From positions 3,038-67,037 of the forward strand of contig CAVOOG010000002.1 of NCBI GenBank assembly GCA_963697475.1: DNA of 64,000 nucleotides, read 5' to 3'. The notes beneath the pieces were generated by a model that was not told the DNA's origin, did no database searches, and saw nothing but the letters and a program-made list of their open reading frames with translations. The position numbers were made by a program, and so were the translations under genes. This document shows, one piece after another, positions 5,162 to 33,531 of the stretch (position 1 is the first letter of the stretch; each line of letters opens with the position of its first letter). Source of the DNA: an uncultured Actinomycetota bacterium. GTDB lineage: Bacteria > Actinomycetota > Actinomycetes > Mycobacteriales > Mycobacteriaceae.

Positions 5162-5204
5162 CGCTACTCCTTATAGCTCATGCCTCCACGGTCTCGGGGG
5201 AACC

Positions 5205-6130: not shown

Positions 6131-6195
6131 CCGCGGCCACGAGCAGTCCGGTTCCCGAACCCGGGTGCTTGCCGAGCAGGTGGTTCGACGATCGA

Positions 6196-9304
<3,109 letters not shown>

Positions 9305-20114: not shown

Positions 20115-20348
20115 ATGGCTGACACGATTACCTTCCGGCCCGACGAAGACACATCGAAGGCGCTGGAGGTCTTGACTAGAGACGGTACGGCTGTGTCGGC
20201 GGCCGTTCGGTCTGCTCTTATCGATGCCGCCCGACGGAAGGCCGGCGCGGCGATTCGTGCCGAGGCGGAGGAGCTCGCCGAAGACGAGTCAGATCGCGCT
20301 GAGGCCATGCAGGTGCTGCGCGATATGGAGACACTGCGTGCGTGGTGA
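20115..20348 (+). CDS. RHH-type antitoxin (MazE-like)
   Basis: TITFRPDEDTSKAL...VSAAVRSAL; TACACT 6 nt upstream; overlaps toxin start. Confidence 0.8.
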   Translation: MADTITFRPDEDTSKALEVLTRDGTAVSAAVRSALIDAARRKAGAAIRAEAEELAEDESDRAEAMQVLRDMETLRAW

Positions 20349-20649
20349 GGTCTTTCGGTTGCATGCCGCGAGGGGGAGCCGCGGTCACGAGCAGTCCGGT
20401 TCCCGATACGCCGTAGTCGTCCAGTCAGATCAACTGCCGCTGTCGACCTGGCTGGTTGCGCCGACATCCACGTCGGCTCGTGCTGCCAGCTTCCGACCCG
20501 AGGTCGAAGTCGGCGGCCTAAAGACTCGAGTGCTTGCTGAGCAGACCGCAGCGGTCGACCCGGGCCGGCTCGGCAAGAGCGTCGGGTTCCTAAGTTTCGA
20601 CGAATTGCGTCGCGTTGATGCGGCCCTGCGTGTCGTCCTCGATCTATGA
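20338..20649 (+). CDS. mazF: MazF/PemK endoribonuclease toxin
   Basis: MRGEVFRL...RGHEQSGSRYAVVVQ...VAPTSTS...LAEQTAAVD. Confidence 0.88.
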   Translation: MRGEVFRLHAARGSRGHEQSGSRYAVVVQSDQLPLSTWLVAPTSTSARAASFRPEVEVGGLKTRVLAEQTAAVDPGRLGKSVGFLSFDELRRVDAALRVVLDL

Positions 20650-20684: not shown

Positions 20685-20748
20685 AACAATTGGCAAGCAG
20701 TGCATTACGGTGTACTGGTAACCCTGCATATTCAATTGCTGCATATTG
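20685..20748 (+). repeat. Dispersed repeat copy B (dif-site flanks lacking core)
   Basis: AACAATTGGCAAGCAGTGCATTACGGTGTACTG|GTAACCCTGCATATTCAATTGCTGCATATT. Confidence 0.7.
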
Positions 20749-20795
20749 GGCGCGGATGTAGTGACCAGGTTTTGCTTAGGATGGAATGCCGCCGA

Positions 20796-22043
20796 TCAGC
20801 TCCGGCCTGACGCTTCCATGGCGGTTTTCACCGCGTCGTAAACATCGACCTGCTCGACGCGAACGGTGAATGGCTCGCCCTCGAAGACCGTTCCGTAGCC
20901 GAGTGCGGTCACGGTGTAGGTGACGGTCACCTCGTCCAAATTCAGGTTTCGCAGCACCAAGACGACGTCGTCTGCGTTGTGACGCCAGGGCGGGTGTGGT
21001 CGCAATTCGGCGAGCGTGATGGTCACCTCGAGGTCACCGTCATCGTTGTCTTCCCACTCGACGGGGTAGTCAGCGGGCAACCTTAGCTTTAAGTTCTGCA
21101 CGGCTAAGCTGCCGAACGGGTGCTGCGCCGGAAGCCAATCGGGATCCTTCAGCTTCTCCCATTCGAAAATGCCGATGTCTTCGAACTCAAGGCCGCCCGC
21201 GCCGTGGAAGGTCAAGATCACCTGCACGTTGCTGAGGAACGACTGCGCTTGGTTGGTGATGCGAAACCGCAAGGCGGGCCAGCAGATTGCCGCCAGGTAG
21301 TCTTGGCAGGCCGCCCACCGTCTTTCCAGGTCGCGTCGCAGGGTGGCTACTTGCCCAGCGATCTCTTCGTCCGAAATTGGTCGGGCCAGCTCGTCCGAGG
21401 CCTCGTAGCCCATTGGCCGCATTACAGACGGCATCACCGGATTCGGTGGGTTAGCTCGTAGTTCTTCGTTGCGCCGGCGCAACGACTCCTCCTCTATTTC
21501 CACCACGGTGGCCAACATTTCATCACCGTGAAGGAAGGTGCGCGCGTGCCCAATTACCTCGGCAGTAACCAGGATTGGCGGCGGTCCCGCCGGGATGCCC
21601 AGAAACTGCTCTCGAACCCCCGCCATGTGTGGGCGGTCGAGAACGGTTGTGACGCGTTCCAGGTGGTACAACTCGACTTTGGTATCGCCGCCGACCTTGC
21701 CAAGTGCCTCGCGTTCGGCGAGGCGTAGCTCCTGGTTGGTCACGAAGGCGACGCCAACTGGCGCAGGCGTTTGTGATTTGGCCTTCTCCACGTCGGACGT
21801 GAGTTTGTCGGTGATCCCGCTGATGCTCTGCTGACCGCGGGGGAAGTAAACAGCCATGACCCACGGCTCGCCGTTCTTCTGAATTAGTGCGTCGACGCCA
21901 CCGTCCTTGCCGCCCAACGGATGGGCCGGATCGATGCTTTCGAAACTCTCCTCGTCGAGGATGAGCGCAGCCATTCGCTCGGACGGCGTCTGGCCCATCG
22001 TCCACTCCAACAACAGGTGCCAAGTCTCGTCGAATCGCCTCAC
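20796..22043 (-). CDS. Hypothetical protein with N-terminal restriction-endonuclease-like domain
   Basis: SERMAALIL...IDPAHPLGGKDGGVDAL...FVTNQ resembles Mrr/PD-(D/E)XK-like domains; C-terminal part unassigned and beta-rich. Confidence 0.55.
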   Translation of the reverse strand: MRRFDETWHLLLEWTMGQTPSERMAALILDEESFESIDPAHPLGGKDGGVDALIQKNGEPWVMAVYFPRGQQSISGITDKLTSDVEKAKSQTPAPVGVAFVTNQELRLAEREALGKVGGDTKVELYHLERVTTVLDRPHMAGVREQFLGIPAGPPPILVTAEVIGHARTFLHGDEMLATVVEIEEESLRRRNEELRANPPNPVMPSVMRPMGYEASDELARPISDEEIAGQVATLRRDLERRWAACQDYLAAICWPALRFRITNQAQSFLSNVQVILTFHGAGGLEFEDIGIFEWEKLKDPDWLPAQHPFGSLAVQNLKLRLPADYPVEWEDNDDGDLEVTITLAELRPHPPWRHNADDVVLVLRNLNLDEVTVTYTVTALGYGTVFEGEPFTVRVEQVDVYDAVKTAMEASGRS

Positions 22044-22073
22044 GCGCTGCCTGTCATTGTTGTCCGCACCATC

Positions 22074-24218
22074 TCAGTCCTCGGCGGCCTCGTCCACGAG
22101 AGTTGTGCACGCCGCTATGACGAATTCGGGCACGGCATCGAACTCTTTTGGATTCAGTTGCATTACGTACTCGTTCTCGATGTGGTATGTCTCGTTAACG
22201 AATTTAGTGAAAACTTCGTCGCCCTTGAAAGATTCAGGGTTCAGCGCCAGCAGCATTCGAAATAGTTGCACCTTCTCGTAACCGACGTCTGTTGCCTTGA
22301 AGCGAGCCTTGAGCGCCGCCTGATTCTTCGATTCTGCCACTAGCTGGCCGTAGTGGAAGTCAGGAATATATTTCCTGACTTCAGCTGTAGCGGCCGCCAT
22401 ATCGGCTTCGTTGAGGGGAATTTGTTCGCCTGAGGCGAGCTTCCGTGTTGGCATATTCCGAGCGTGGAGCAGGCTTGAAAGAAGTTCGTACTCGTCGCCT
22501 AGTGTGCCGTGGACTTCGAAACGACGTCGCAAATAAATGCATTGGATAAGCTGGTCTGTTGAAGACGAAATATTATCATCACAGACCTGGGAGAAAGTCT
22601 TGATGTCCGTCGCGGTGATGGGCTTTTCGACAAGCTGTCCTGATCGCCCGCTGAGGAAGTGAACCACTGGGTTGGTGGCAGCGAACTGCCCCGTGGTCCG
22701 CACGATATCGATCGCTGGTTCGATGTCGTGTGTCAAGAGAAGTGAGGTTGTGTCACGCAAGCTGTTCGTTCCGTGGAATAGCTGATGGAGGATTGCGAAC
22801 TTCTTCGTCTTGTCGAAACTGGATACCGGATCATCGAGCACTACGAGGTGCGGCTTCTTGTGCTGCACATCGTGCATGAATAAAACTAGTGCGAAAGCGT
22901 TCTTCTCTCCGTAACTCAGGTGGCTCGCAGCAGCCTCGATATGCCCGGGAGCATCTTCGTGTTCCAGCAACATCCGATAAGCGCCCTCGTTCGGCTCTAT
23001 TCGCACTGTGTAGCGATATCCTGCCGACTTCAAGAATGCATTGATATCGTCCTGGTTACGTTTAATAAGCCTCGCTACTCGCGTTTTCTGCTCGCCAATC
23101 CGCCGCCGAATGTCGTCGATCTGCGCGGCCACTTCGTCTAACTTTTCGTTGATCAGGCGCACGACGGACTGAGTCGCTTCTGAGCCGAGGGCGGGAAGGT
23201 AGTTGAGGTCGATCTTTAGTTCTCCGAGGACTGTTGCGATGTTCGCCTCGTCCCTGAGCGCATGGAAGGACAAGCCTTTGACCGCCGAGAGTTTCGTCAG
23301 CAAGGTTTCGACTTGGCTGCGGAGCGTGACGAGGAACGATTCTTGCTCAGGTGACAAGCCGCCGATTGAAGTAGTCAGGTCTTCGAGCTTCTGGAGATCA
23401 GAAGGCTCGAAGTAGCGTCCAAGCCTATCGATCACGTTCCGCAGCAAGCTCATGTTCTTGACTGCGGCGGACTCGTACTCTTCCGAGACCTTCGTTGCGG
23501 TTTGCTTGTCAACGCTCGGAACTGAGCAGAACGGGCAGTTATCCGAAAGCTGAAGAAATTCCTTGCCTTTGGACTGCCAGGTAATCCAAGCGGCCGGATT
23601 GTCGCTGTGAAGAAATCTCTCATACCCGCGTAGCTGCTCAGGGATGTTCTTAAGTTTCCCGCCCACGCTGAGGGCTTTGTAGCCTTTGCTTGTTTTGGCA
23701 ACGGCGCCACCCTTAGTGACGTTGAACGCGTCCCTGAGTTCATTGAAGCTCTCGAGCGCCTGGTTGAACTCTGCTTCGTCATCGAATGTTTGCTTCAGCG
23801 ATTGGAATTTTGACTCGATCTGAGCTAGGCCCTCTTGGAAATCCGCTGTGTTGATGAATATTTCGAAGCTATTCTTCAGGACTTCGTCCCGCTGAAACAC
23901 GAACTGCGACACATAATCATCGTTGAAGGTCATAACACTCGTGATACCGTCGGCTCCTTCGATAGAAGGGCGCGGGGCAGTCTTCAGCGACTTGTGTTTG
24001 AACGGCGTTAGCTCTTCTAGTTGTTCGTTGCCCACGGCCCGTAGCTCCAGCGCGCGAGCGATCGTGCTCTTGCCAATACCGTTGGGACCGTATTTGATGT
24101 TGAGCGAACCGTGTCGCAACGAGATTCTTCCTTCGGTAATGCTGTTGCAGTGCCGAATCGTGATATGAAGCTCCATTGAGGCGGTGGAAGAGGTCGCCTG
24201 CTCGTCAATTTGAGTCAT
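22074..24218 (-). CDS. RloC-like (AAA_13-type) ABC/SMC ATPase with Zn hook
   Basis: Walker A GPNGIGKS, CPFC hook inside coiled coil, LSYGEK signature, LVVLDDPVSSFD Walker B/D-loop, LLTHD H-switch. Confidence 0.75.
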   Translation of the reverse strand: MTQIDEQATSSTASMELHITIRHCNSITEGRISLRHGSLNIKYGPNGIGKSTIARALELRAVGNEQLEELTPFKHKSLKTAPRPSIEGADGITSVMTFNDDYVSQFVFQRDEVLKNSFEIFINTADFQEGLAQIESKFQSLKQTFDDEAEFNQALESFNELRDAFNVTKGGAVAKTSKGYKALSVGGKLKNIPEQLRGYERFLHSDNPAAWITWQSKGKEFLQLSDNCPFCSVPSVDKQTATKVSEEYESAAVKNMSLLRNVIDRLGRYFEPSDLQKLEDLTTSIGGLSPEQESFLVTLRSQVETLLTKLSAVKGLSFHALRDEANIATVLGELKIDLNYLPALGSEATQSVVRLINEKLDEVAAQIDDIRRRIGEQKTRVARLIKRNQDDINAFLKSAGYRYTVRIEPNEGAYRMLLEHEDAPGHIEAAASHLSYGEKNAFALVLFMHDVQHKKPHLVVLDDPVSSFDKTKKFAILHQLFHGTNSLRDTTSLLLTHDIEPAIDIVRTTGQFAATNPVVHFLSGRSGQLVEKPITATDIKTFSQVCDDNISSSTDQLIQCIYLRRRFEVHGTLGDEYELLSSLLHARNMPTRKLASGEQIPLNEADMAAATAEVRKYIPDFHYGQLVAESKNQAALKARFKATDVGYEKVQLFRMLLALNPESFKGDEVFTKFVNETYHIENEYVMQLNPKEFDAVPEFVIAACTTLVDEAAED

Positions 24219-24285
24219 TACCTACCCTTATCTGATTCGGGATGCGACGTCGCAAATTTCCCAGCACCTTCTGCGGGTCCCGAAA

Positions 24286-25485
24286 TCATCTTCCTTCTCG
24301 TTCCACTAATTTTCCGAGGCGTGCATCGTAGACGTAGTCGACGATCTCTCCGGACAAGATCATGTTGACTGCCTGGTTGATCACGCTTCGGCCCACAACA
24401 AACCATTCCGATGGGTCGTAGTTGCGGCCCTTGCGATCGACCTGGGAAAGGTCGAGCCGTACCTCAGCGAATACCCGGTGCAGCAGATGCTCTAGAGCCG
24501 AAGGCTTGAGGTTGTAGGTGCGATAGTCCTCGACGATCTTCACTGGAGCCATCAGGTAAGTCGGCGACTTTTCCGCGTTTTTGATCCGCTGCTCGACGCT
24601 CGTCGTGGAGAACCCGATCTTGTGGAGGTCGGCGATGCCAGCGACCAGGGGGTCCGAGCTAAGCGACCGGAGAACGTAGATGTGGCCGCTTTCGGTGTCG
24701 CCATCGAAGATCTCGTCGTCTCCGATGCCGGTGCGGACGACCGCTTGCCCCTCTTGCTCGTGGAGTCGGATGGATAGCGACTGCCGGTACATCGCGGACT
24801 CGGTGCCGTTCTCGAAGATCACTCGTAGTCTCTGCTTCGGCTCGGGTTTGCCGCCGACGACCATCGTCTTTGTTTCCCCGACGTCCGCTACGAACAGCAG
24901 CACTCCATTCAGGACGAAAAACCGGCCCTCCTGCACAGTGGGCAGGCCCCTGAATGGAGCCAGCTTGACCGCGCCCTCGGCGAGCTCGACGTGCTTGGCC
25001 TTGAAGAGGTGCTCGAACTGGTGGAAGTCAGTGCTTTTCTTACGTTTTGCCACCGAGTCGGGTGAATCCGGTGCCTTGCGAACCGGTAGGTCGGAGACGT
25101 CAAGCAATCCATACTCGTCCCCAAGCAAGTCAAATTCGTCGCCCTGCAGCACGTCGTCGATCGACGTCGGAGCCTCAGGAACGTCGAGCAGGCCGAAGTC
25201 GTCGAGTGGCTTCAGTGCTGCGATCTTCTCGTCGCTCGCAAGGATGCCGTCAAGGCGCGCCCCGAGCTTGCGCTCACCGATGTCTCGCGTCGAAGAACTC
25301 GGGGTCCGCCCTTGGGAACGCCGGAACTCGATCACCTCGAGGAATGCCCGCTCCAGCCGGTCCGAGGAGCTGACCTTCTGCGGCTTGTCTGGAGCGTCGA
25401 GCAGACCGTCGACATCGGAATCCAGCAGTGTCTCAATGTCGATGGGTGTGGCCACGGTGTCGGTCTGGTCTCCGGCGTTGCTCAT
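24286..25485 (-). CDS. GIY-YIG nuclease, T5orf172 domain (YeeC-like)
   Basis: GHIYVLRS...LHKIGFSTTSVEQRIKNAEKSPTYL...EHLLHRVF...EWF. Confidence 0.85.
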   Translation of the reverse strand: MSNAGDQTDTVATPIDIETLLDSDVDGLLDAPDKPQKVSSSDRLERAFLEVIEFRRSQGRTPSSSTRDIGERKLGARLDGILASDEKIAALKPLDDFGLLDVPEAPTSIDDVLQGDEFDLLGDEYGLLDVSDLPVRKAPDSPDSVAKRKKSTDFHQFEHLFKAKHVELAEGAVKLAPFRGLPTVQEGRFFVLNGVLLFVADVGETKTMVVGGKPEPKQRLRVIFENGTESAMYRQSLSIRLHEQEGQAVVRTGIGDDEIFDGDTESGHIYVLRSLSSDPLVAGIADLHKIGFSTTSVEQRIKNAEKSPTYLMAPVKIVEDYRTYNLKPSALEHLLHRVFAEVRLDLSQVDRKGRNYDPSEWFVVGRSVINQAVNMILSGEIVDYVYDARLGKLVEREGR

Positions 25486-27467
25486 GGTTCCTCCATCACC
25501 TCGGCGGCACGTTGCACGGCGAGACGCTCCTGTTTCTTCTTTTGCAGGAATAGCACTATCTCGGCGTACCGCTTCTCCGTCGGATCGTCAGAGCGGACGT
25601 TGGGTTTGCGGCCGTTGACCTTGGTCCACGCTTGGATCTTCGACCACGCGGTCAGGGCTTCGTCCTCAGTTACGTCGACACGGGTAGCGGTTATTGCATC
25701 GGAGATGATGCGCAGCACCGAAGGCGTGACCGACTTGCTCATGACCTCGAAGGCTCGCTGGAAGGGGTTGACCGAGTCGATGAGGTTGATGTTGATGTCG
25801 TCGATGTTGACGAACTTCTCGGCCATCTTGATGAACCGCTTGTCGCCGACTTCCCGGACTTCACCGTTCTTGATCACCGAGTCCACGACGACCTGCTGCC
25901 GCAGTTCCTCGACCTGGGACTCGTCCAAATCGGGGTATCGCTCGCGGATGATCTTCGGGATCAGGACCTTGTTTGTGGTCTCGGGGTCGAGCGATCCGGC
26001 GGCGGCTTTGGCGAAGGTGTTGTCTTGCAGGATCGTGGCTTTGAGATCGTTCAGGTCGGTCTCAACGATCTGCTTAACACGTTCGGTAGTTGGCTCCTTG
26101 AAGCCCGTGATTTTGATGGTGCCGGGAGGGTTGGGGTCTGGGTCCCCGGTCCGCTTCGTCTTGAAGATGAAGTTCTGTGCGAGCACCTGCTCCATGAGCA
26201 GCGAAGCGGTAATAGCCTTGAGCATGTTGTTCACCGACACCGTGACTTCCCCTTGCGAGGCGTCCGGTTCGGCGATTAAGTTGGTGAACTGGGCATGCTC
26301 CTTGCCAGGGCTGTCGCGGGTGACCCGGCCAATAATCTGGATGACCTCAGTCAGCGACGCCCGATAGCCGATGGTGAGCGCGTGCTCGGCGAAGGGCCAG
26401 TCGAACCCTTCCTTAGCCATCCCGAGCGCGATGATGATATCGACGCCGCCGCGCTCCTTGGAGGCGACGGTTGACAGGTAGTGCAAGGTATCCGCGCGCT
26501 TCTTCTGGTCCGCGTCGTCTACGAGATCCGCGACCTTGAGGACTTCTCCGGTGTCCACGCGGCGAATGCTGATGATCCCGGTGTCGGGATCCGTACCATC
26601 GACGTGGCCTATCGCGTCGATGATGAACCCGACCTCCTCGATCTTGTCCTTCGTCGACTCGCCCGAGTTCACGTTCGGGATATGGAGAATGGTCTTTTTA
26701 TCCAGGTCGAGCACTTCACCGATCGCGTCGGTGTATCGGCCCTGGTAGAAGTGATGCCCGATGCCCAGCGACTTGAGGTGTTCGTATCCGTTGAGCTGGT
26801 CGTAGTAGTTGAATGTGACCGGGGTGAACTTGGCCTCGTCCTCAGCTGACAGCACCGGCACCGAGTCGCCCCGGAAGTATGACCCGGTCATCGCGACGAT
26901 ATGTACGTCCGAGCCGTTCATCACCTCACGCAACAACGCTCCGAGTCGATTGCCCTCGGTGTCGGCCGAAACGTGGTGAAACTCGTCGATCGCCAGCACC
27001 GTGCCGTTGAACGCCTCGGGTGCGAGCCTCTCGAATGCGAACCGCAGCGTCGCGTGAGTGCAGACCAGCGTTGAGTCGGGTCCATTCAGGAAGTTGATGA
27101 ACGCATCGACCTTGCCCAAAGAGGAGCCAGGCGTGCACAGGTTGTGCTCTGGCTTGATCTCCCAGTCGGCGAAGAACCCGTGCTTCGTCAGGTCCGTCGA
27201 CGAGAACGAAGCACCGATGGACCGCTCGGGAACGGCGACGATCACCTTCTTCCGGCCCTGGTTGTAGAGCTTGTCCAGTGCGACGAACATCAGCGCTCGT
27301 GACTTGCCCGACGCCGGCGGGGCCTTCACCAGCAGATTCTGGGCATCTCGCCTGGCGAACACTCGTCGCTGCATTTCCCGCATGCCCATCGCATCGGTCT
27401 TCACAGACGCCCCGGTGCGCGCGTAGGTCACATCGACGAGGTTGACTGGCTTCCCAATTGTGTTCAC
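25482..27467 (-). CDS. SF2 helicase/ATPase (YeeB-like)
   Basis: MREMQ, APPASGKS, IDEFHH, AMTGS, EGFDWP, QIIGRVTRD; 4-bp overlaps with both neighbours. Confidence 0.88.
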   Translation of the reverse strand: MNTIGKPVNLVDVTYARTGASVKTDAMGMREMQRRVFARRDAQNLLVKAPPASGKSRALMFVALDKLYNQGRKKVIVAVPERSIGASFSSTDLTKHGFFADWEIKPEHNLCTPGSSLGKVDAFINFLNGPDSTLVCTHATLRFAFERLAPEAFNGTVLAIDEFHHVSADTEGNRLGALLREVMNGSDVHIVAMTGSYFRGDSVPVLSAEDEAKFTPVTFNYYDQLNGYEHLKSLGIGHHFYQGRYTDAIGEVLDLDKKTILHIPNVNSGESTKDKIEEVGFIIDAIGHVDGTDPDTGIISIRRVDTGEVLKVADLVDDADQKKRADTLHYLSTVASKERGGVDIIIALGMAKEGFDWPFAEHALTIGYRASLTEVIQIIGRVTRDSPGKEHAQFTNLIAEPDASQGEVTVSVNNMLKAITASLLMEQVLAQNFIFKTKRTGDPDPNPPGTIKITGFKEPTTERVKQIVETDLNDLKATILQDNTFAKAAAGSLDPETTNKVLIPKIIRERYPDLDESQVEELRQQVVVDSVIKNGEVREVGDKRFIKMAEKFVNIDDININLIDSVNPFQRAFEVMSKSVTPSVLRIISDAITATRVDVTEDEALTAWSKIQAWTKVNGRKPNVRSDDPTEKRYAEIVLFLQKKKQERLAVQRAAEVMEEP

Positions 27468-30190
27468 TCGTGTGCACCCCTTGTCGTCTTCGCCGACACC
27501 TTCGCGCCCGTGGCGCTTTCCTCGGCAGTCATCGCTTCATACATACCGAAGAGGTCCGACAAGCGCTGCTCATCCGTCTCGTAGCCGCGCTTGGAGTAGA
27601 TCGAATCCACCAGAGCATCGACCTCGGCGTGCGCCACCCGTAAGTCCTCCGGCATGAGATCGGGGTCGTACAATTCTGCGAGGGTTCTCTCGCAGTGGTA
27701 CTCACGCACGTCCAGCACCCGCAGCGCTACGAGTGCGAGTTTCTCCTTCGCCCCATTGGATAGGGGTGGGACTGGGAAGTTGTTGTAGACGATCGTGTTG
27801 GAGTATCGATAGTCGGTCTTCATCCGACCGCCGACCGCCCTTGTCCAGGCCATGTGAATCGCTGACGTGACCAACGCGAATACCCACGGCTCGGCATCGT
27901 AGACCGCAAACGCAAGATCGGAGATAACCGTGTCTGCATCCAAGAATCCAATGGGAATGTATTCGCGCCGCTCCGACGAGACTTTCGGGACGATAATTGA
28001 TTCGGTCGGCTTGTATCGAACTTCGCCGAATCGATGGGGGACAGAACTCAGTTTTCTGGTCGCTGATTTCTTGCTCTTAGAGCGCATCGAGGCTGTAGCG
28101 GCCAGCCGCTTGCGAATGGCAGGGTTCTCCTCGGCTTCTCCCTTCTGAAAGTCCTCGATCCAGAGGCAATAGCGCTCCTCGCCTTTGATGAACTCGGCAC
28201 TACCAGCGAATCGCTTTACGAAGCCGATTGCCCCGGGGTGGTCGGTAAGGAGTTCGGCTCTGTCGCCAGGGGAGAGCAGGAGATTGCCACCGTCGGTCGC
28301 CTGACTTCCCTTGGACATGACTGGAAGGATGGTTGTGAGTGGCTTGGGACGTGCGGTGACGAAAACTGATTCGGCGTCTGCGAGGTAGCCGTTGATATTC
28401 GTTGCTGCCATCTGCAGGTCATCGCTGTAGATGTACTTCGGTGCTGGCGACTGGTTGCGGAGACTGACGACTGCCACCGTAACTCCGGCATTGCGTTTAG
28501 CGTTGTTCTCCCATTTGAACGATGTGTACGCGAAGCCGATCTCAATCCCTCCTGCAAGCAGAGTGGGAAACAGCAATGCAACCTGTTCACCCTGGGTGAT
28601 CGAGTTGGTTGTGACAAAGGCCAACTGAGACCGGGTGCCACGGATGTAGTCGGCGCCTTTTACGAACCAGAGTGAGATGTAGTCCAAGTTCTTCGAGTAG
28701 ACCCGTCGCCCAAAAGTCGACTCGAAATCGGCTTTCTGGTCCGAGGTCTGCATGCTCGCCCCGGCGTAGGGTGGGTTTCCAATCAGGTAGATCTCAGATC
28801 GGCCATCGTTCGGGCACACGCCCGTCCAGTCGAGTCGCGCTGCGTTTCCTACTCGGATCTGACCGGTTTCTTTGAGCGGGATCAAAGGAATGGAGAGATT
28901 AAACTTTTCCTTGAACTCGCTGTTCATCTGGTGCTTCGCGATCCATAGCGAGAGGATAGCGACCTCGACGGCGAAGTCATCGATCTCGATGCCGTAGAAG
29001 TTCTCGATGCTGATCTTCGACTCCGCAAACAACACTTGATGCCTGGGATCGAGCTCGGCGAGTCGCTCCAAGATCGCGTGTTCAAGCTTGCGCAGCTCTT
29101 TGTATGCGATGATCAGGAAGTTCCCCGAACCGCAGGCGGGATCGAAGACCTGGATCGCGGCGATCCTCTCCAGCAGAGCTTCCAGTTTCTTAACGTTCTC
29201 GTATCCCGCGTCGAACTGCTCCTTCAGCCTGTCGAGGAACAGGGGTTCGATGGTCTTGAGTATGTTCGGCACCGAGGTGTAGTGCTGCCCAAGATCGGAT
29301 CGCTTGCCGGGAGTGACGATGGCTTGAAACATCGAACCGAAGATGTCGGGATTGATCTCGCGCCAGATCAAGGTGCCCAGCTCGACCAGCAGGTCGCGGG
29401 CCTTCCTCGTGAACTTCGGCACCACCTGGTCCGGCGAGACGGAGAACAGTCGTCCGTTTACGTAGGGGAATTTCGCGAGATAGGTTGGCTTTTCGGCGGC
29501 GTCTACAGTATCGAGTGCGGTGAAGAGATCGGCGAGGAAGTCGGTGACATCAGAGCCGTCGGCTTGTGTATGTGATCCGACAGCGTTGGTGAACTGACCG
29601 TCTGTGAAGATGCCGGTGTCCTCGGCGAAGAAGCAGAACAGCAACCTGGTGAAGAACACGTTCAGTGCGTGACGCCCGTGTGGCAGGCTCAGCAGGCCCG
29701 GATTGGCTCCGAGCAGCTCATCGAAGAGCTTGCCCATCCGTTCGGCGGCTTTGACGTCCGCGTGTGCCTCGGCGACGTACTGAGCTTTCTCCATGCCGGC
29801 CCAGGGCAGAAAGAAGGTGAAGTGCTGGTCGATGTCCCGGATCGGGATCATCAGGTTCTCGCCGGTCTTTGTGTCGATGGCGAGCAGTTCGCTGTAATCG
29901 GTGACGATGACGAACCGCGGGTTGTATCGAACCACGGCCGGTGAGGTCTTCAGCTCGTCGATCACCGCGAGCGGGTCGCCCGAAGTCTCTTTGAAGTAGA
30001 CGACGTTCTTCTGCGCGACTTCAGTCTCGGGATCATCGGCGACGTTGAGTGATCCCTTGCGTAGTCGGGTGACGTTCCCCAGAGGCTTCCCGTAGGCGAG
30101 CAGTAGGTCGAAAATGAACTCACGGTCGTAGGATTCGCGCCCTCCAAGCGGACCGACCCGCTCCTCGACTCCCTTGAGATTAAGCCTCAT
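27464..30190 (-). CDS. MmeI/YeeA-like N6-adenine DNA methyltransferase with target recognition domain
   Basis: FDPACGSGNFL (motif I), IGNPPY (motif IV), GQHYTS, RYSNTIVYNNFP; no clear N-terminal PD-ExK. Confidence 0.92.
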   Translation of the reverse strand: MRLNLKGVEERVGPLGGRESYDREFIFDLLLAYGKPLGNVTRLRKGSLNVADDPETEVAQKNVVYFKETSGDPLAVIDELKTSPAVVRYNPRFVIVTDYSELLAIDTKTGENLMIPIRDIDQHFTFFLPWAGMEKAQYVAEAHADVKAAERMGKLFDELLGANPGLLSLPHGRHALNVFFTRLLFCFFAEDTGIFTDGQFTNAVGSHTQADGSDVTDFLADLFTALDTVDAAEKPTYLAKFPYVNGRLFSVSPDQVVPKFTRKARDLLVELGTLIWREINPDIFGSMFQAIVTPGKRSDLGQHYTSVPNILKTIEPLFLDRLKEQFDAGYENVKKLEALLERIAAIQVFDPACGSGNFLIIAYKELRKLEHAILERLAELDPRHQVLFAESKISIENFYGIEIDDFAVEVAILSLWIAKHQMNSEFKEKFNLSIPLIPLKETGQIRVGNAARLDWTGVCPNDGRSEIYLIGNPPYAGASMQTSDQKADFESTFGRRVYSKNLDYISLWFVKGADYIRGTRSQLAFVTTNSITQGEQVALLFPTLLAGGIEIGFAYTSFKWENNAKRNAGVTVAVVSLRNQSPAPKYIYSDDLQMAATNINGYLADAESVFVTARPKPLTTILPVMSKGSQATDGGNLLLSPGDRAELLTDHPGAIGFVKRFAGSAEFIKGEERYCLWIEDFQKGEAEENPAIRKRLAATASMRSKSKKSATRKLSSVPHRFGEVRYKPTESIIVPKVSSERREYIPIGFLDADTVISDLAFAVYDAEPWVFALVTSAIHMAWTRAVGGRMKTDYRYSNTIVYNNFPVPPLSNGAKEKLALVALRVLDVREYHCERTLAELYDPDLMPEDLRVAHAEVDALVDSIYSKRGYETDEQRLSDLFGMYEAMTAEESATGAKVSAKTTRGAHE

Positions 30191-30335
30191 CGTGATACTC
30201 CTTCCGGCACAAGCGCAATCGCATGAAACACCTGTGCTGATCGTGCAGCATGTCGCTCCCTGGTTGTGACGCGAGAACAGCCCGCTTTTGTCTCACGTGA
30301 TTCGCTTCGCCCTCGGCTACGTCGTCCGCTGGCAT

Positions 30336-31844
30336 TCATCCGTTGCCAGTTGCGTATCGGCCCCACGGCTGCGCTACGAGTGCAGCATGCCGATGTACCA
30401 CCTGATCGCTGTAGCCCAGCATCTCGGCGACAACTGGCGGCGGCACCTGTGTGACCAGCTCGCGCAGGGCGGTGTTTCGAGCCCCCAGTAGGTCGACGCC
30501 GAGCCAGCGAAGGCGAGACATCAGCGAGTCAGGATGCAGATGCTCACCGGGTCGATATCCCGGAAACAGCCAAGGGTTGTCTGCTCCACTTGTGCGGAGA
30601 TTGGGCCTGCTGCCCACGTGGCTTCTTAATAGCTCGGCGAATGGCTCAGGGACAGGCGAAGGCGTGACGCCGAGTTCTAGTGAGAGCCCATCGGGCGCGA
30701 CGAGCACCTTGCTCATCGGTATGGCGGCAACCTTCACAAGCGGCTGGGCGTAGAGGAGTAGCAGAGTTCCCGCGACGCGGTAGGGAAGTGATTCACTGTC
30801 GCCGGTCAGAAGCTCGCGGATCCACTCGAGCCGTTGATCTTGCGTGAGGACTCTGACGGTTTTCGCTTGCCTGAATCCGAGTGTGACCGACGGGTTGATC
30901 CGCTTTTTCTTGCACCAGATGATGAAGGTCCGAATGAGGTGCCGCGTTGTCGGACCTGTTGCGACCCAAAGGTCCACATCTTGCTGAGTGCAGTCGGCGA
31001 TCGTTCGTCCATGTTCGGTTCGAAGCCACTCAAGGAACTTCAGTGCCTCAGTGATGTCCTGCTTCGAAGCGTGAACGGGTCCGCGAGTCGGCTTCCCGGC
31101 GAGTGCTAGATCGTTGATTCGTTTGAGGTGGTGCCAGGTAGCGAATTGCCTTATCGGCGTGGCAATCTGGGGATCTGAGACTTGGCGCAGCTTATCTTCG
31201 ATCCACCGCTCGAAGTAGGCGAGATACTTGTCACGGGTCGGTAGCACTTCATGGTGCTGCAGGATTGCCCGGAGATGGTCGACGTGCCGACCCGCGGGCT
31301 CGTACTGGTCCAGGCCGTCGTGGGTGAGGGAAGTGGTGCCATCTCCGAGGGAGCGTAGGAGCCCCTGAACCTTGTCCGACCGTTTCCACGTGATGATGCT
31401 CTCGGCGCGATCGGCTTCGCACAAGGCGTCGATGAGTTGAGAGAATCCCGCGGGGGAGTCGGAGTGCACGAACGTTCTCTCGAGATCCTCACGGAGGCTG
31501 CACCGCGCGCATACGTTGCGGCGGTAGGGCCGGCGCTCCTCATTGCATGACGTGCAGTAGAAGCTGTGGCGGATACGCGCGCAGTCTCGACACACCGGTT
31601 GCTCGCCGATGTCCAGCCGGCCGGGAAGGAGGCGGTGAAATCCACAGCTGGGGCAGTCACCGTAGAGGCTAGTTGCTTCGTAGTAGCAGGAATTGCAGAT
31701 GCGGCCGTCTGGCCATGTTGCTGCCGTGCGCCGCATCTCGCGATGGCAGCGGGCACACTCCATTGATCCGTCGGTGACTTTGGGTCGTCCGCGAACGGTG
31801 TTCCGGCGATGCGGATCAATCGTCATCGCTGAGGATCCGAGCAC
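30336..31844 (-). CDS. Zn-finger protein (six CxxC) with degenerate recombinase-like C-terminus
   Basis: CARC, CNSC, CPSC, CRDC, CTSC, CARC in first 140 aa; NPWLFPG...GARNTAL...VVAEMLGYS at C-terminus. Confidence 0.75.
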   Translation of the reverse strand: MLGSSAMTIDPHRRNTVRGRPKVTDGSMECARCHREMRRTAATWPDGRICNSCYYEATSLYGDCPSCGFHRLLPGRLDIGEQPVCRDCARIRHSFYCTSCNEERRPYRRNVCARCSLREDLERTFVHSDSPAGFSQLIDALCEADRAESIITWKRSDKVQGLLRSLGDGTTSLTHDGLDQYEPAGRHVDHLRAILQHHEVLPTRDKYLAYFERWIEDKLRQVSDPQIATPIRQFATWHHLKRINDLALAGKPTRGPVHASKQDITEALKFLEWLRTEHGRTIADCTQQDVDLWVATGPTTRHLIRTFIIWCKKKRINPSVTLGFRQAKTVRVLTQDQRLEWIRELLTGDSESLPYRVAGTLLLLYAQPLVKVAAIPMSKVLVAPDGLSLELGVTPSPVPEPFAELLRSHVGSRPNLRTSGADNPWLFPGYRPGEHLHPDSLMSRLRWLGVDLLGARNTALRELVTQVPPPVVAEMLGYSDQVVHRHAALVAQPWGRYATGNG

Positions 31845-32151
31845 GTTTGGGGCGGATGGCCTTGTTCAGTTCGACGACGTTCTCTCGGCCGGCACTAGCG
31901 GCTTTCTTGCGGGCATCCGCAGCGGTAACCGTGACGAGATCGTCTGGGCCGCAGTCAAAGATGTCGCAGAGCGCGGCGATGAGCTTCAGAGAAACTCGTT
32001 CGGGTCGTTGGTGGACGAGCCGGTAGACCTGTGGCCGTGACAGCGTGATCCCGCGTTCGTTCAGCCGCGGCATGAGATCCGTGCTGTTGTGCATCTGGTT
32101 GCTGGCCATAAGTTCGGCGAGGCGCCATTGGTAATCGACATCGCGTTTCAT
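31816..32151 (-). CDS. Xre/Cro-C1 type HTH regulator
   Basis: WRLAELMA...LSRPQVYRLV...PERVSLKLIAALCDIFDCGPDDL. Confidence 0.85.
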   Translation of the reverse strand: MKRDVDYQWRLAELMASNQMHNSTDLMPRLNERGITLSRPQVYRLVHQRPERVSLKLIAALCDIFDCGPDDLVTVTAADARKKAASAGRENVVELNKAIRPKRARILSDDD

Positions 32152-33257
32152 CCGGCGCCACCGTTCTGCGTCGGAGACAGCGCGGCAGCGATGGTGGCGT
32201 CAAGCGCATTTCGCAGTGTCCTGGTGCGGTAGTCGCTGCTTACACAGCTATAGATCGCCGTGGTGGAAGCGTGTTCATGGCCCATTTGGTGTTGGACGAA
32301 CATCGCGTCCCAGCCAGCTTCGAGTAAGTGCGTTGCATAGGATCGTCGGAACGAGTGGAGATCGAGGCCGGGAGAAAGGTCGAGATCGTCGCAGTATCGG
32401 CGAAAGCGCCTTATGAGCGTGGTTTCCGAAACGAGATTGTCGCGTTCGCTGGGGAACAGGTCGATCCCGTCGTCCATATGCTGTTGCCCATTTTCGAACC
32501 AATCGGTGAGCACCTCAGGTGTCCAGTCAAAGACTGTCAGCACACTGCGCCGTTTAGGCGGGGAGCCTTTTTTTGCCTTGCCGTAGCGCACATGCACCAG
32601 ACCGAACTTCCCGAACTCCTTGGCCTGTGGGTTCCTCGCGAAGTCGACCGTCTGCAGGTGGCACAGTTCATTGAACCGCAAGCCATACGAGTAGGCGATC
32701 TTGAACATTACGGCGTCACGGTAAGCGGGCAGCCAACCCTTTCTTCCTGACGCGGCAACGGCGGATACCTGCTCATCAGCGTGGTCGAAGAAATCTTGCA
32801 GCTCGCGCTTGGTGAAGGCGCGCTTCTCTGGTCGGGCTTCGTTTTCCTGAACATGCTGAGCGGTGTTCCAGTCGAAGAAGACCTGGGATGGGTGGGTGCC
32901 GAACAGTGCTTCACAGACGCGGTCCCAGCCGTAGTCAGGATTACTGACGTAGGAACAGAACTGCCGAAGGCCAACCTGATAGGAGCGGATCGACGATTGG
33001 GCGAGCGTATGGATCGAGCGTAGATCGCCGAAGAACTCGTCGACCATGGCGACGGTCCAAGTCCACGGGAACTCATTGGAGTGTTCCATGAAGCGCTGCA
33101 CCTGCTTGATGCGGGCATCGATAGTCTCGAACTGCAGATTGCGGCTCAGCTGCTGGTTGCGCCAACCTTGGAGCATTTCGGCGACCGTCTGTTCTTCGGG
33201 GTGCAGGGGCCTAACCGCTTCAACGAGATACGCACGTCCGATGTCGTCGACTGCCAC
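32148..33257 (-). CDS. Tyrosine recombinase/integrase
   Basis: GLRFNEL, RYGKAKKG, HSFRRSYATH, QMGHEHASTTAIY (R-K-H-R-H-Y catalytic set present). Confidence 0.92.
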   Translation of the reverse strand: MAVDDIGRAYLVEAVRPLHPEEQTVAEMLQGWRNQQLSRNLQFETIDARIKQVQRFMEHSNEFPWTWTVAMVDEFFGDLRSIHTLAQSSIRSYQVGLRQFCSYVSNPDYGWDRVCEALFGTHPSQVFFDWNTAQHVQENEARPEKRAFTKRELQDFFDHADEQVSAVAASGRKGWLPAYRDAVMFKIAYSYGLRFNELCHLQTVDFARNPQAKEFGKFGLVHVRYGKAKKGSPPKRRSVLTVFDWTPEVLTDWFENGQQHMDDGIDLFPSERDNLVSETTLIRRFRRYCDDLDLSPGLDLHSFRRSYATHLLEAGWDAMFVQHQMGHEHASTTAIYSCVSSDYRTRTLRNALDATIAAALSPTQNGGAG

Positions 33258-33280
33258 CCGAAACTCCCGCCATCTGGTAT

Positions 33281-33309
33281 CAACAGATGAATCAATGATT
33301 CATCTGTTG
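33281..33309. promoter_or_regulatory. Perfect 14-bp inverted repeat upstream of the integrase (putative operator)
   Basis: CAACAGATGAATCA-A-TGATTCATCTGTTG; 19-bp part (33293-33311) recurs at 33471-33489. Confidence 0.6.
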
Positions 33310-33503
33310 CATCATTAAGTCAAGACTCCAGGCCAGCGTGTCGCCCGAATGGTCGCGGAAGTCGTCGTGGCCGTAACCGCCGCGAGTGCACATCGCAGGT
33401 TCGGCGGGCGGAAAGGGCTTGGGCGGCAGGCGAAAACGATGGTAGGAGCGAGGCCCGGACCGATCGCGAGCAATGATTCATCTGTTGCAATATGCAGTGG
33501 TTT

Positions 33504-33531
33504 ACTTGACATAATGTAGATTATCGGCAGT
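33504..33531 (-). other. dif-like XerC/D recombination site
   Basis: Minus strand ACTGCCGATAA-TCTACA-TTATGTCAAGT, 11-6-11 layout; 23/28 to the mycobacterial dif as recalled (TAAGCCGATAAGCGACATTATGTCAAGT). Confidence 0.75.

What the first reader, a model, noticed from the sequence alone, without database searches (positions are those of the whole stretch)
20796..30190. Five-gene candidate defence system: YeeA/MmeI-like methylase, helicase, GIY-YIG nuclease, Zn-hook ATPase and nuclease-fold protein
Seen: five co-oriented intact ORFs; the first three overlap by 4 bp and the rest are 67 and 30 bp apart. The block looks more AT-rich than its flanks and shows no decay in an otherwise eroded window. 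Known: the methylase-helicase-T5orf172 triad matches B. subtilis yeeABC (dnmA locus); PrrC and RloC anticodon nucleases are ABC ATPases linked to restriction systems as back-ups. Inference: a restriction-like layer with separate nuclease subunits plus an ATPase-gated second layer. I do not know this five-gene layout as characterised in mycobacteria.
Basis: partly seen in the sequence, partly recalled or inferred. Interest (0 to 1): 0.8.

Follow-up and report, generated by a model that had tools for sequence, protein, structure and literature searches.

The report
Three stacked defence modules on mobile element
The five genes are real and intact, but they are three separate anti-phage modules: a known YeeABC-type methylase-helicase-nuclease trio, a lone zinc-hook ATPase and a lone nuclease-fold protein, packed side by side as the cargo of a 12.8-kb mobile element in an environmental Mycobacterium.

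Summary
Five co-oriented intact ORFs lie at 20796-30190 with 4-bp overlaps and 67/30-bp gaps, in DNA of 58% GC against 65% in the flanks.

The "five-gene system" reading does not hold.
- The triad (MmeI-like methylase without PD-ExK, SF2 helicase, T5orf172/GIY-YIG nuclease) is a tight unit. Among 87 loci, g1 is present in 66/67 and g3 in 76/76 where the contig allows. Gene 4 is never beside it (0/54).
- Gene 4 (PADLOC candidate PDC-S06) stands alone in 80 genomes: no triad (0/65), no gene 5 (0/67), no conserved partner.
- Gene 5 occurs without gene 4 in three other contexts.

DNA comparison places a module junction in the 67-bp gap (24239-24297). All five genes are cargo of a tyrosine-recombinase element, 20712-33529. 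Its ends are confirmed by metagenome contigs, and its depth is about 60% of that of the flanks. Relatives of the same backbone in M. abscessus and M. phocaicum carry other cargo.

The triad is the YeeA/DnmA-YeeB-YeeC class, described in 2009. It was defensive in Vibrio crassostreae and inactive in B. subtilis.

Gene 5's N-domain is the Mrr-like nuclease effector found on many NLR/STAND proteins.

Verdict: an ordinary defence island with a few useful new details.

The parts
20712..33529 (.). 12,818-bp integrative mobile element that carries all five genes as cargo
   Evidence: It is 58.2% GC against 65% in the flanks. In run X1 the depth is about 60-95 over the element against about 121-139 over the flanks. 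A contig in X5 leaves the flank at 20711, a contig in X8 leaves the element at 33529, and the X2 flank begins at 33530. The terminal sequences are homologous to the ends of the L081-type element.
32148..33257 (-). Tyrosine recombinase/integrase (369 aa), element backbone
   Evidence: Pfam Phage_integrase 4.6e-22. It is 95% identical to the M. phocaicum copy. Its 90%-identity cluster has 187 members, including M. abscessus, M. fortuitum and M. neoaurum.
31816..32151 (-). HTH_26 (Cro/C1-type) protein of 111 aa, element backbone; overlaps the integrase gene by 4 bp
   Evidence: Pfam HTH_26 9.2e-15. It holds the same position in L081, L088 and L188.
30336..31844 (-). 502-aa backbone protein of unknown function with N-terminal Cys-rich zinc-ribbon-like repeats
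   Evidence: Only a weak Zn_ribbon_LapB hit and no PDB or PHROG match. It is conserved next to the integrase and HTH genes in every relative of the element: 84-86% identity in L088 and L188, 53% in L081.
33281..33487 (.). Four copies, direct and inverted, of AATGATTCATCTGTTG upstream of the integrase gene; probably recombinase or regulator binding sites
   Evidence: 5 matches in the window against 0.58 expected; 0 of 100 shuffles reach 5. The same motif sits at the equivalent place in L081.
27464..30190 (-). g1: MmeI-family N6-adenine DNA methyltransferase with a target-recognition domain, lacking the PD-ExK nuclease motif (YeeA/DnmA type)
   Evidence: It matches all five MmeI Pfam domains and PADLOC REase_MTase_IIG at 1e-290. 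It aligns to MmeI 5hr4 only from residue 88. In 62 homologues no acidic residue is conserved in 46-92, while NPPY and motif I are conserved and the TRD (601-750) is the least conserved part.
25482..27467 (-). g2: SF2 DEAD/DExH helicase (YeeB type)
   Evidence: Pfam DEAD and Helicase_C. It is 85-93% identical across actinobacterial genera and always lies between g1 and g3 homologues. Homologues occur on 266 plasmids.
24286..25485 (-). g3: T5orf172/GIY-YIG-like nuclease (YeeC type) with GLLD short-motif repeats in its N-terminal region
   Evidence: Pfam T5orf172 and MUG113. Conserved residues are G267, Y270, K289-I-G291, R300, E332, H336 and E360-W361. PGAP names homologues 'GIY-YIG nuclease family protein'.
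24239..24297 (.). Junction between two cargo modules, inside the 67-bp g3-g4 gap
   Evidence: Homology to the M. phocaicum element (backbone plus triad) ends at 24298. Homology to the L081 element (g4-g5) starts at 24238.
22074..24218 (-). g4: stand-alone Rad50/SMC-like ABC ATPase with a coiled-coil insert, a CPxC zinc-hook motif and a conserved all-alpha C-terminal domain (PADLOC candidate PDC-S06)
   Evidence: PADLOC PDLC04889 at 1e-276 over residues 18-711 and Pfam AAA_13. Foldseek matches SMC, Rad50 and RecN heads. C228/C231, R564-R565-x-x-E568 and N675-E-x-x-H679-I-E-N are at least 95% conserved in 81 sequences. No conserved neighbour gene exists.
20796..22043 (-). g5: stand-alone protein with an N-terminal PD-(D/E)xK (Mrr/Avs4-effector-like) nuclease fold, a charged helical linker and a C-terminal Ig-like beta-sandwich
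   Evidence: AF2 model with pLDDT 84.9. Foldseek matches Avs4, MspJI, BspD6I and XisH for the N-domain, and YcnI and adhesins for the C-domain. The N-domain recurs at the N-terminus of NACHT/AAA_16/nSTAND proteins. The gene callers used a start at M16, giving 400 aa.

Best explanation
The block is a defence island, not one system. Three independent immunity modules are stacked head to tail as the whole cargo of a 12.8-kb tyrosine-recombinase mobile element (integrase, HTH protein, 502-aa zinc-ribbon protein) in an environmental Mycobacterium.

Module 1 (g1-g3) is a YeeA/DnmA-YeeB-YeeC-type, type-I-like restriction-modification system. The MmeI-family subunit reads an asymmetric site through its TRD and marks self DNA with m6A. 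Lacking its own nuclease motif, it is inferred to hand unmodified sites to the translationally coupled SF2 helicase and T5orf172/GIY-YIG nuclease for ATP-driven cleavage.

Module 2 (g4) is a single-gene Rad50/RloC-like zinc-hook ABC ATPase (PDC-S06). Its conserved C-terminal domain (RRxxE ... NExxHIEN) is inferred to be an effector, most likely an RNase of the PrrC/RloC kind. The ATPase would release it on infection or DNA damage, giving abortive infection.

Module 3 (g5) is a single-gene sensor-effector. Its Mrr-like nuclease domain is the one used as the N-terminal effector of many NLR/STAND immune proteins. Here it is joined to an Ig-like C-terminal domain instead of an NTPase.

Shown: the gene content, the domain folds, the autonomy of each module, the junction, the element borders and the element's polymorphism in the population. 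Inferred: every biochemical activity.
For: Triad autonomy. g1 is present in 66/67 and g3 in 76/76 of 87 g2-anchored loci where the contig allows. g4 is present in 0/54 with room. The triad also lies on plasmids, with PGAP names DNA methyltransferase, DEAD helicase and GIY-YIG nuclease.

g4 autonomy. Among 80 loci in Actinomycetota, Pseudomonadota, Campylobacterota, Bacillota and other phyla, the triad is in 0/65 and g5 in 0/67. No neighbour gene family recurs. PADLOC treats it as the candidate PDC-S06.

g5 autonomy. It occurs alone in M. vulneris, Gordonia and Rhodococcus.

Mosaic origin. Window 33528-24298 is about 81% identical to the M. phocaicum element (backbone plus triad, followed there by a YobI-ATPase). 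Window 24238-20795 is about 84-85% identical to a different mycobacterial element whose cargo includes g4-g5 and no triad. GC differs by module.

Mobile element. The ends are exact and the depth is halved in metagenome runs. The same backbone carries other cargo in M. abscessus.

Mechanism leads. No PD-ExK in g1. Morgan et al. 2009 noted the invariable linkage to a helicase and a GIY-YIG gene, and found no endonuclease activity in YeeA alone. yeeAB inactivation sensitised V. crassostreae to phage. The g4 motifs are conserved. The g5 fold and its NLR fusions point to an effector nuclease.
Against: No experiment bears on this locus. The B. subtilis yeeABC homologues showed no restriction of transformation and no defence against three phages. 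g4 and g5 are adjacent in two versions of the element (the window and L081-L086). In the window about 150 bp between them is missing, leaving a 30-bp gap, so co-transcription and cooperation cannot be excluded. g4 homologues sometimes follow other methylase-nuclease pairs, so a loose functional link to restriction is possible. The g4 C-domain has no detectable homologue of known function. The catalytic residues of g5 are not canonical: there is no (D/E)xK lysine on the expected strand.
Confidence: 0.8

Rival explanations
1. One reading: one integrated five-gene system. The methylase-helicase-nuclease layer restricts DNA, and the Zn-hook ATPase with the nuclease-fold protein forms a dedicated back-up layer gated by the state of the first, as PrrC is gated by EcoprrI.
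For: The five genes are co-oriented and tightly spaced with no terminator-like site between them. PrrC and RloC set a precedent for ABC ATPases linked to restriction loci. A g4 homologue lies 29 bp downstream of another methylase plus HNH pair in Microbacterium. Defence genes are often embedded in triad loci.
Against: g4 is beside the triad in 0/54 triad loci, and the triad is beside g4 in 0/65 g4 loci. g5 accompanies neither outside this element lineage. The homology blocks break in the g3-g4 gap. The upstream neighbours of g4 in 74 loci are heterogeneous, with RM genes in only about 5-7. Related elements carry the triad without g4-g5, or g4-g5 without the triad.
Confidence: 0.07
2. g4 and g5 form a two-gene ATPase-plus-nuclease system, like Gabija, PARIS, Septu or Lamassu, parked next to an independent triad.
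For: They are adjacent and co-oriented in the window (30-bp gap) and in L081-L086 (195-bp gap). ABC-ATPase plus nuclease pairs are a common defence design, and g4 gives weak PADLOC hits to LmuB, AriA and PtuA.
Against: All instances of the pair belong to one element lineage (88% and 83% identity), so they are not independent observations. g4 lacks g5 in 67/67 other loci and has no recurring partner. g5 lacks any ATPase neighbour in M. vulneris, Gordonia and Rhodococcus.
Confidence: 0.1
3. The triad here is a relic, as proposed for B. subtilis: an orphan epigenetic methylase with non-functional helicase and nuclease partners.
For: B. subtilis dnmA-yeeB-yeeC gave no restriction or phage-defence phenotype, and DnmA regulates gene expression.
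Against: All three ORFs are intact with conserved catalytic motifs. The helicase is 85-93% identical across genera, which implies strong purifying selection together with horizontal spread. The locus rides a polymorphic mobile element. yeeAB was needed for phage resistance in V. crassostreae. The B. subtilis authors note that their YeeB and YeeC lack C-terminal stretches.
Confidence: 0.1

Closest known systems
YeeA(DnmA)-YeeB-YeeC of Bacillus subtilis, the 'second set' of MmeI homologues of Morgan et al. 2009 (PMC2731913); yeeAB of Vibrio crassostreae 7F1_18
   Same: An MmeI-like methylase/TRD without PD-ExK, followed at positions +1 and +2 by a DEAD helicase and a T5orf172/GIY-YIG protein. 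The order and overlapping stop/start codons match. It sits in low-GC, horizontally acquired DNA next to recombinase genes.
   Different: This is an actinobacterial lineage. I did not align the window proteins directly with the B. subtilis or Vibrio proteins. The recognition sequence is unknown and the TRD differs even from the closest relatives: no DNA similarity to L088 over 28039-28375. The phenotype is unknown; it was positive in Vibrio and negative in Bacillus.
MmeI-type type IIL/IIG restriction-modification enzymes (PDB 5HR4)
   Same: g1 shares the helicase-spacer, methyltransferase, TRD and C-terminal domains (E 4e-172 to MmeI). PADLOC would label it REase_MTase_IIG.
   Different: The N-terminal about 87 residues do not align with MmeI, and the family conserves no D...ExK. 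Cleavage, if any, must come from separate subunits. A 'type IIG RM' call by automated tools would be a misclassification.
RloC / PrrC anticodon nucleases (PMC2610378); PADLOC candidate PDC-S06
   Same: g4 has ABC ATPase motifs, a coiled-coil insert with a conserved CxxC as in RloC, and a conserved R-X3-E in an alpha-helical C-domain. Like RloC, it is only occasionally linked to RM genes: about 5-7 of 74 loci, against 8 of 72 for RloC. It matches the PDC-S06 model over its full length.
   Different: No conserved His lies 36-52 residues after the Glu; the only invariant His is 111 residues downstream. The Pfam AAA_13 C-terminal region does not align. In the papers found by my one search for the name (5 held it; I read the passages in 2), PDC-S06 appears only in prediction lists, with no experimental test.
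Avs4 and other NLR/STAND antiviral proteins with an N-terminal Mrr-like nuclease effector
   Same: The g5 N-domain's best structural match is Avs4 (8dgf). The same domain heads many NACHT/AAA_16/nSTAND plus TPR/HEAT proteins.
   Different: g5 has no NTPase or repeat sensor. It has only a charged helical linker and an Ig-like beta-sandwich, which also occurs with a different N-domain in Janibacter. It is not an Avs family member.
Defence-cargo integrative elements such as Gamma-Mobile-Trio islands of Vibrio (from memory), and type I RM loci with embedded rlo/prrC genes
   Same: A conserved three-gene recombinase backbone carries exchangeable defence cargo. There is a weak NCBIfam hit of the integrase to GmtY (E 1.8e-5). 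Cargo is swapped at gene boundaries.
   Different: The backbone proteins are not demonstrably homologous to GMT proteins; the hit is far below the cut-off. I did not search the literature for this element family specifically.

Membership tests
YeeA/DnmA-YeeB-YeeC class (MmeI homologues lacking the nuclease motif, Morgan 2009) | MmeI-like methyltransferase plus TRD, similar to MmeI over most of its length | tested here: met
   Pfam MmeI_hel, MmeI_Mtase, MmeI_TRD and MmeI_C. E 4.4e-172 to MmeI 5hr4 over residues 88-889.
YeeA/DnmA-YeeB-YeeC class (MmeI homologues lacking the nuclease motif, Morgan 2009) | No PD-ExK motif; the first ~100 residues differ from MmeI | tested here: met
   The alignment to MmeI starts at residue 88. 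Among 62 homologues only K61 is conserved between residues 46 and 92.
YeeA/DnmA-YeeB-YeeC class (MmeI homologues lacking the nuclease motif, Morgan 2009) | Flanked by a DEAD-type helicase gene and a GIY-YIG/T5orf172 gene at positions +1 and +2 | tested here: met
   The arrangement is conserved in 66/67 and 76/76 related loci with room.
YeeA/DnmA-YeeB-YeeC class (MmeI homologues lacking the nuclease motif, Morgan 2009) | Direct sequence homology of g2 and g3 to B. subtilis YeeB and YeeC | not tested
The match rests on domain families and synteny as defined in PMC2731913 and PMC9973331.
YeeA/DnmA-YeeB-YeeC class (MmeI homologues lacking the nuclease motif, Morgan 2009) | m6A on one strand of an asymmetric site; restriction or phage defence | not testable with these tools
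   Only DNA contigs of metagenomes are available, with no methylation or phenotype data.
Type IIG/IIL single-polypeptide RM enzyme (MmeI proper; the PADLOC label REase_MTase_IIG) | Functional PD-ExK endonuclease in the same polypeptide | tested here: not met
   YeeA-type proteins showed no endonuclease activity (PMC2731913).
RloC anticodon nuclease | ABC ATPase motifs with a coiled-coil/CxxC zinc-hook insert | tested here: met
   Walker A, signature, Walker B and the H-loop are conserved, and C228/C231 are at least 95% conserved. The fold matches SMC/Rad50 heads. The model is of low confidence around the hook.
RloC anticodon nuclease | C-terminal Arg-X3-Glu-X36-52-His catalytic triad (PMC2610378) | tested here: not met
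   R564-X3-E568 is conserved, but H622 (after 53 intervening residues, just outside the range) and H585 are not conserved. The invariant H679 lies 111 residues after the Glu.
HEPN RNase | Conserved Rx4-6H motif | tested here: not met
   R564/R565...H570 exists in the actinobacterial sequences, but H570 is replaced by I, L or R in the proteobacterial homologues.
PADLOC PDC-S06 (candidate single-gene defence protein) | Full-length match to the family HMM | tested here: met
   PDLC04889 at 1e-276, residues 18-711 on profile positions 2-690 of 693.
PADLOC PDC-S06 (candidate single-gene defence protein) | Functions without a dedicated partner gene | tested here: met
   No recurrent neighbour in 80 loci. 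This is genomic evidence only.
Avs/NLR-like STAND immune proteins | Central STAND NTPase plus a repeat sensor | tested here: not met
   g5 has no NTPase hit. The model shows a nuclease fold, a helical linker and a beta-sandwich.
BREX / DISARM / MADS (methylase-centred multigene systems) | Presence of the other core genes (PglZ/BrxC; DrmA/DrmB; mad1-8) | tested here: not met
   There are only weak methylase-domain hits to PglX, DrmMI and mad2, and weak ATPase hits to mad3 and mad8. No other components lie in the element.

The most novel reading that the evidence does not exclude
The integrase / HTH / zinc-ribbon backbone would define a family of site-specific mobile elements in rapidly growing mycobacteria, including M. 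abscessus. These elements would be dedicated shuttles for interchangeable defence cassettes swapped at gene boundaries. On this reading, g5 is the founding member of a new single-gene antiphage family: an NLR-type Mrr-like nuclease effector driven by an Ig-like sensor without any NTPase. Stacking a PDC-S06 ATPase behind the YeeABC-type triad would give layered immunity acting in trans, in the manner of PrrC and RloC.
Probability: 0.3. Interest if true: 0.6.

Novelty: new member of a known kind. Interest (0 to 1): 0.38.

Why it matters
For annotation, this is a clear case where tight, co-oriented spacing suggests an operon-like system, but comparative genomics shows three modules joined by cargo exchange on a mobile element. 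Automated tools would also mislabel g1 as a type IIG restriction enzyme.

For mycobacterial biology, the same element backbone occurs in M. abscessus, M. fortuitum, M. neoaurum and M. phocaicum with different defence cargo. These elements are therefore candidate determinants of strain-specific phage resistance and of barriers to transformation.

The YeeABC-type triad remains biochemically unsolved 17 years after it was described. A compact actinobacterial version with intact motifs is a reasonable model for testing in M. smegmatis.

The side finding that other defence genes are inserted between the methylase and helicase genes in about a quarter of triad loci parallels the rlo/prrC insertions in type I loci. 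It deserves a systematic survey.

Tried and rejected
1. HEPN reading of the g4 C-domain. An RRxFEVH (Rx4-6H) motif looked convincing in 13 actinobacterial sequences, but H570 is not conserved in the 81-sequence alignment. Rejected.

2. RloC membership of g4. The His of the triad is not at the defining spacing. I kept only 'works like'.

3. Sequence searches for the g4 C-domain, the g5 N-domain and the g3 N-region against Pfam at E up to 10, and for the whole g4 family profile against PDB sequences. Only ABC-ATPase heads matched g4, and nothing useful was found for the other regions.

4. Foldseek on the whole g4 model returned only SMC/Rad50 heads. The model (pLDDT 66.6) says nothing on the C-domain's relatives.

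5. A conserved partner gene for g4. Clustering the adjacent ORFs in 80 loci gave no family beyond the three closest relatives. A Pfam scan of 133 upstream ORFs gave 130 different families.

6. A tRNA gene as the integration target. No tRNA is in the window.

7. Long direct repeats flanking the element. None were found. The ends were defined instead by homology to related elements and by metagenome contig break points.

8. RNA evidence for co-transcription. Only DNA metagenome runs hold the sequence. The sigma-70 and terminator scan was uninformative, with counts at or below the shuffle expectation.

9. The 'eroded window' claim. A GC3-based ORF map was not discriminating. Pfam coverage of 10 large ORFs showed 9 full-length genes.

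10. The 502-aa backbone protein. No PDB, PHROG or NCBIfam match. Its function is left open.

Full report
**Observation.** Five minus-strand ORFs lie at the stated coordinates: g1 27464-30190 (908 aa), g2 25482-27467 (661 aa), g3 24286-25485 (399 aa), g4 22074-24218 (714 aa) and g5 20796-22043 (415 aa). g1/g2 and g2/g3 overlap by 4 bp, and the other gaps are 67 and 30 bp. GC is 53-61% across the block against 62-69% around it. The element defined below is 58.2% GC against 65.0% and 65.2% in the flanks, and g4 is lowest at 53.0%. All five genes have full-length homologues elsewhere. The side remark that the window is otherwise eroded is not borne out. Nine of ten large flanking ORFs cover their Pfam models end to end. 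The immediate neighbours, a fatty acyl-AMP ligase and a CapA protein, are at least 90% identical to full-length proteins of Mycobacterium and Mycolicibacterium genomes. This also confirms a mycobacterial host. The sequence occurs in soil and drinking-water metagenomes.

**What the genes are.**
- g1 matches all five MmeI Pfam domains and the PADLOC type IIG model. It aligns to MmeI (5hr4) only from residue 88, past MmeI's catalytic region. In 62 homologues no acidic residue is conserved between residues 46 and 92, while motif I and NPPY are invariant and the TRD is the most variable part.
- g2 is an SF2 DEAD/DExH helicase.
- g3 carries a C-terminal T5orf172/MUG113 domain with the conserved GIY-YIG-like residues.
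- g4 is an AAA_13 ABC ATPase that matches the PADLOC candidate PDC-S06 over its full length at E 1e-276.
- g5 has no hit in Pfam, NCBIfam, PADLOC or PHROGs.

- Anchoring on g4, a genome-collection scan gave 80 loci from Actinomycetota, Pseudomonadota, Campylobacterota, Bacillota and other phyla, with up to 10 kb on each side. tblastn found no g1, g2, g3 or g5 in any of them. 65 loci had room for a triad and 67 had room for g5.
- ORFs adjacent to g4 fall into no recurrent family. A Pfam scan of 133 upstream ORFs gave 130 families, with RM genes in only about 5-7 loci.
- Anchoring on g2, 80 metagenome loci and 7 genome loci gave g1 upstream in 66/67 and g3 downstream in 76/76 where the contig allows. 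g4 was present in 0/54 with room. The only g5-related hit was a weak C-domain match on the opposite strand in Janibacter.
- g5 homologues occur without any ATPase in M. vulneris (in an island with TIR and DUF6602 genes), in Gordonia (next to a ParE/Phd pair) and in Rhodococcus.
- g4 and g5 are adjacent only in the window and in one related element lineage (L081-L086, 88% and 83% identity). There the layout is integrase, HTH, 468-498 aa protein, g4, g5, with no triad.

**Mosaic structure.** At the DNA level, window 33528-24298 is about 81% identical to an element of Mycolicibacterium phocaicum. That element carries integrase, HTH, a 475-aa protein and the triad, followed by a 1342-aa YobI-ATPase. 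Similarity stops at the g3 stop codon. Window 24238-20795 is about 84-85% identical to the L081 element, beginning 20 bp before the g4 start. The junction therefore lies in 24239-24297, inside the 67-bp gap. Relative to L081, about 150 bp between g4 and g5 is missing in the window.

**The carrier.**
- Upstream of g1 lie a 502-aa cysteine-rich protein, a 111-aa HTH_26 protein and a 369-aa tyrosine recombinase.
- The terminal sequences of the L081-type element have counterparts at window about 33500-33529 and 20712-20735. That element is inserted at different sites in four assemblies.
- Metagenome contigs fix the ends. A contig in run X5 follows the flank to 20711 and then enters a different variant of the element end. 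A contig in X8 follows the element to 33529 and then diverges. In X2 the flank starts at 33530, preceded by a variant end sequence.
- In run X1 the flanks have word depth of about 121-139 and the element about 60-95, so the element is present in only part of the population.
- The element is thus 20712-33529 (12,818 bp), and the five genes are its whole cargo.
- The integrase belongs to a 90%-identity cluster of 187 members from M. abscessus, M. fortuitum, M. neoaurum and others. In M. abscessus the same backbone carries a YobI-ATPase, a 308-aa protein and an Mrr_cat protein.
- A 16-nt motif is repeated four times upstream of the integrase gene; 0 of 100 shuffles reach the observed count.

**Triad: what is known.**
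- Morgan et al. 2009 described a set of MmeI homologues, with YeeA as the example, that lack PD-ExK. These are invariably flanked by a DEAD helicase gene and a GIY-YIG gene. YeeA alone showed no endonuclease activity. The authors proposed that the MmeI-like subunit provides specificity and modification while the helicase and nuclease subunits cut.
- In B. subtilis, DnmA makes m6A at GACGAG, but the locus neither restricts transformation nor protects against three phages. Those authors note that their YeeB and YeeC lack C-terminal stretches.
- In Vibrio crassostreae, single-gene inactivation showed that yeeAB mediates resistance to one phage group.
- The window's triad meets every sequence-level criterion of this class. 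Its helicase is 85-93% identical across genera, which argues for a selected, mobile function. The triad also lies on 266 plasmids.
- I therefore commit to a type-I-like restriction mechanism, with the enzymology marked as inferred.

**g4.** An 81-sequence alignment conserves the ABC motifs, C228-P-x-C231 inside the helical insert, R564-R565-x-x-E568 and N675-E-x-x-H679-I-E-N. The predicted fold matches SMC, Rad50 and RecN heads and retron-associated ATPases. RloC is defined by the zinc-hook ATPase plus an Arg-X3-Glu-X36-52-His triad. g4 has the first two elements, but no conserved His at that spacing, and H570 of a tempting Rx4H motif is not conserved. g4 therefore works like RloC at the level of architecture, without being a demonstrable member. 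In the papers found by my one search for the name PDC-S06 (5 held it; I read the passages in 2), it appears only in prediction lists.

**g5.** A confident model (pLDDT 84.9) has three parts:
- an N-terminal alpha/beta domain whose best PDB matches are Avs4, MspJI, R.BspD6I, XisH, EcoO109I, Can2 and Cdn1, all PD-(D/E)xK nucleases;
- a charged helical linker;
- a C-terminal beta-sandwich resembling YcnI and adhesin Ig-like domains.

A profile search of 1.84 billion representatives found 1424 relatives. In many of them only the N-domain matches, at the N-terminus of proteins of 700-1300 aa. Of nine of these that I scanned, six carry STAND-type NTPase domains (NACHT, AAA_16, nSTAND), several with TPR or HEAT repeats. 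One more has TPR and a PIN domain, one is a kinase fusion and one has no hit. A Janibacter protein has the g5 linker and C-domain with a different N-domain. So g5 looks like a sensor-effector fusion using an NLR-type nuclease effector. Its catalytic residues are non-canonical.

**Verdict.** The five-gene system is not supported. The block is a stack of three autonomous defence modules on a polymorphic mycobacterial mobile element. Its first module belongs to a class known since 2009, its second is a catalogued candidate, and its third is an uncharacterised family. It is a new member of known kinds, of moderate interest. Three points are worth following up: the modular element family (also present in M. 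abscessus), the g5 family, and the insertion hot spot inside triad loci.

Noticed in passing
window 20116-20649 (+ strand): An apparently intact MazEF-like toxin-antitoxin pair lies directly outside the element's distal end. It comprises an RHH-type antitoxin (20116-20349, MADTITFRPDEDTSKALEVL...) and a MazF-like toxin (20338-20649, ...AVVVQSD...APTSTSA...) that overlap by 12 bp. I read it from the sequence only.
   Followed up: partly
L114, L130, L136, L158, L160, L173 and 10 other triad loci (gap between the g1 and g2 homologues): In 16 of 66 related triad loci, 0.5-5.4 kb is inserted between the methylase and helicase genes. The inserts sampled encode other defence or phage-related genes: Hachiman HamA plus helicase plus a YhcG nuclease, a CAP12/Pycsar-type TIR protein, ApeA (HEPN), RhuM, Bro-N/ORF6N and an M78 peptidase. 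This parallels the rlo/prrC insertions in type I RM loci.
   Followed up: partly
L188-L190 (Mycobacteroides abscessus) and L088 (Mycolicibacterium phocaicum): The same integrase / HTH_26 / ~500-aa backbone carries different cargo. The integrase cluster at 90% identity or more has 187 members. In M. abscessus the cargo is a YobI-ATPase (1345 aa), a 308-aa protein and an Mrr_cat protein. In M. phocaicum it is the triad plus a YobI-ATPase.
   Followed up: partly
window 25091-25417 (g3 codons ~24-132): The N-terminal, probably disordered region of the T5orf172 protein holds three to four copies of a short peptide repeat, [DE]xxGLLD[AV][PS][DE]. The DNA repeat family D1 reflects it. Leu-Leu pairs at 28-29 and 99-100 are at least 90% conserved in 78 homologues. 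These may be docking motifs for the helicase or the methylase.
   Followed up: partly
L183-L187 (Microbacterium), 4844-9151: A PDC-S06 homologue (66% identical to g4) lies 29 bp downstream of a co-oriented pair: an EcoRI-like methylase and a GmrSD_N/HNH nuclease. This is another case of the ATPase following a methylase-nuclease module.
   Followed up: partly
window 20711/20712 and 33529/33530; runs X2 and X5: In other metagenomes the same chromosomal site is occupied by different variants of the element. The X5 contig continues with an L081-like end. X2 has the end CTTGACATAATGTGGCTTATCG against the window's CTTGACATAATGTAGATTATCG. The flanks read ...TTACGGT | element | GTAAAC..., so the joined flanks would form a short inverted repeat (TTAC-GGT-GTAA).
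   Followed up: partly
window 37670-39091 (+) and 41470-42936 (+): A full-length RtcB RNA ligase gene lies about 4 kb from the element, and a DDE transposase (IS) about 8 kb away. RtcB repairs RNA cut by ribotoxins. I tested no link to g4.
   Followed up: no
L089 14807-16135 (Janibacter, minus strand): A 442-aa protein 1.6 kb downstream of the Janibacter triad shares g5's linker and Ig-like C-domain (30% identity over 237 aa), but has an unrelated N-terminal domain. This suggests the C-domain is a portable sensor module.
   Followed up: partly
window 28039-28375 (g1 TRD, residues ~605-717): This is the only stretch of backbone plus triad with no DNA similarity to the M. phocaicum element. It falls in the target-recognition domain, so the two methylases probably recognise different sequences.
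   Followed up: no
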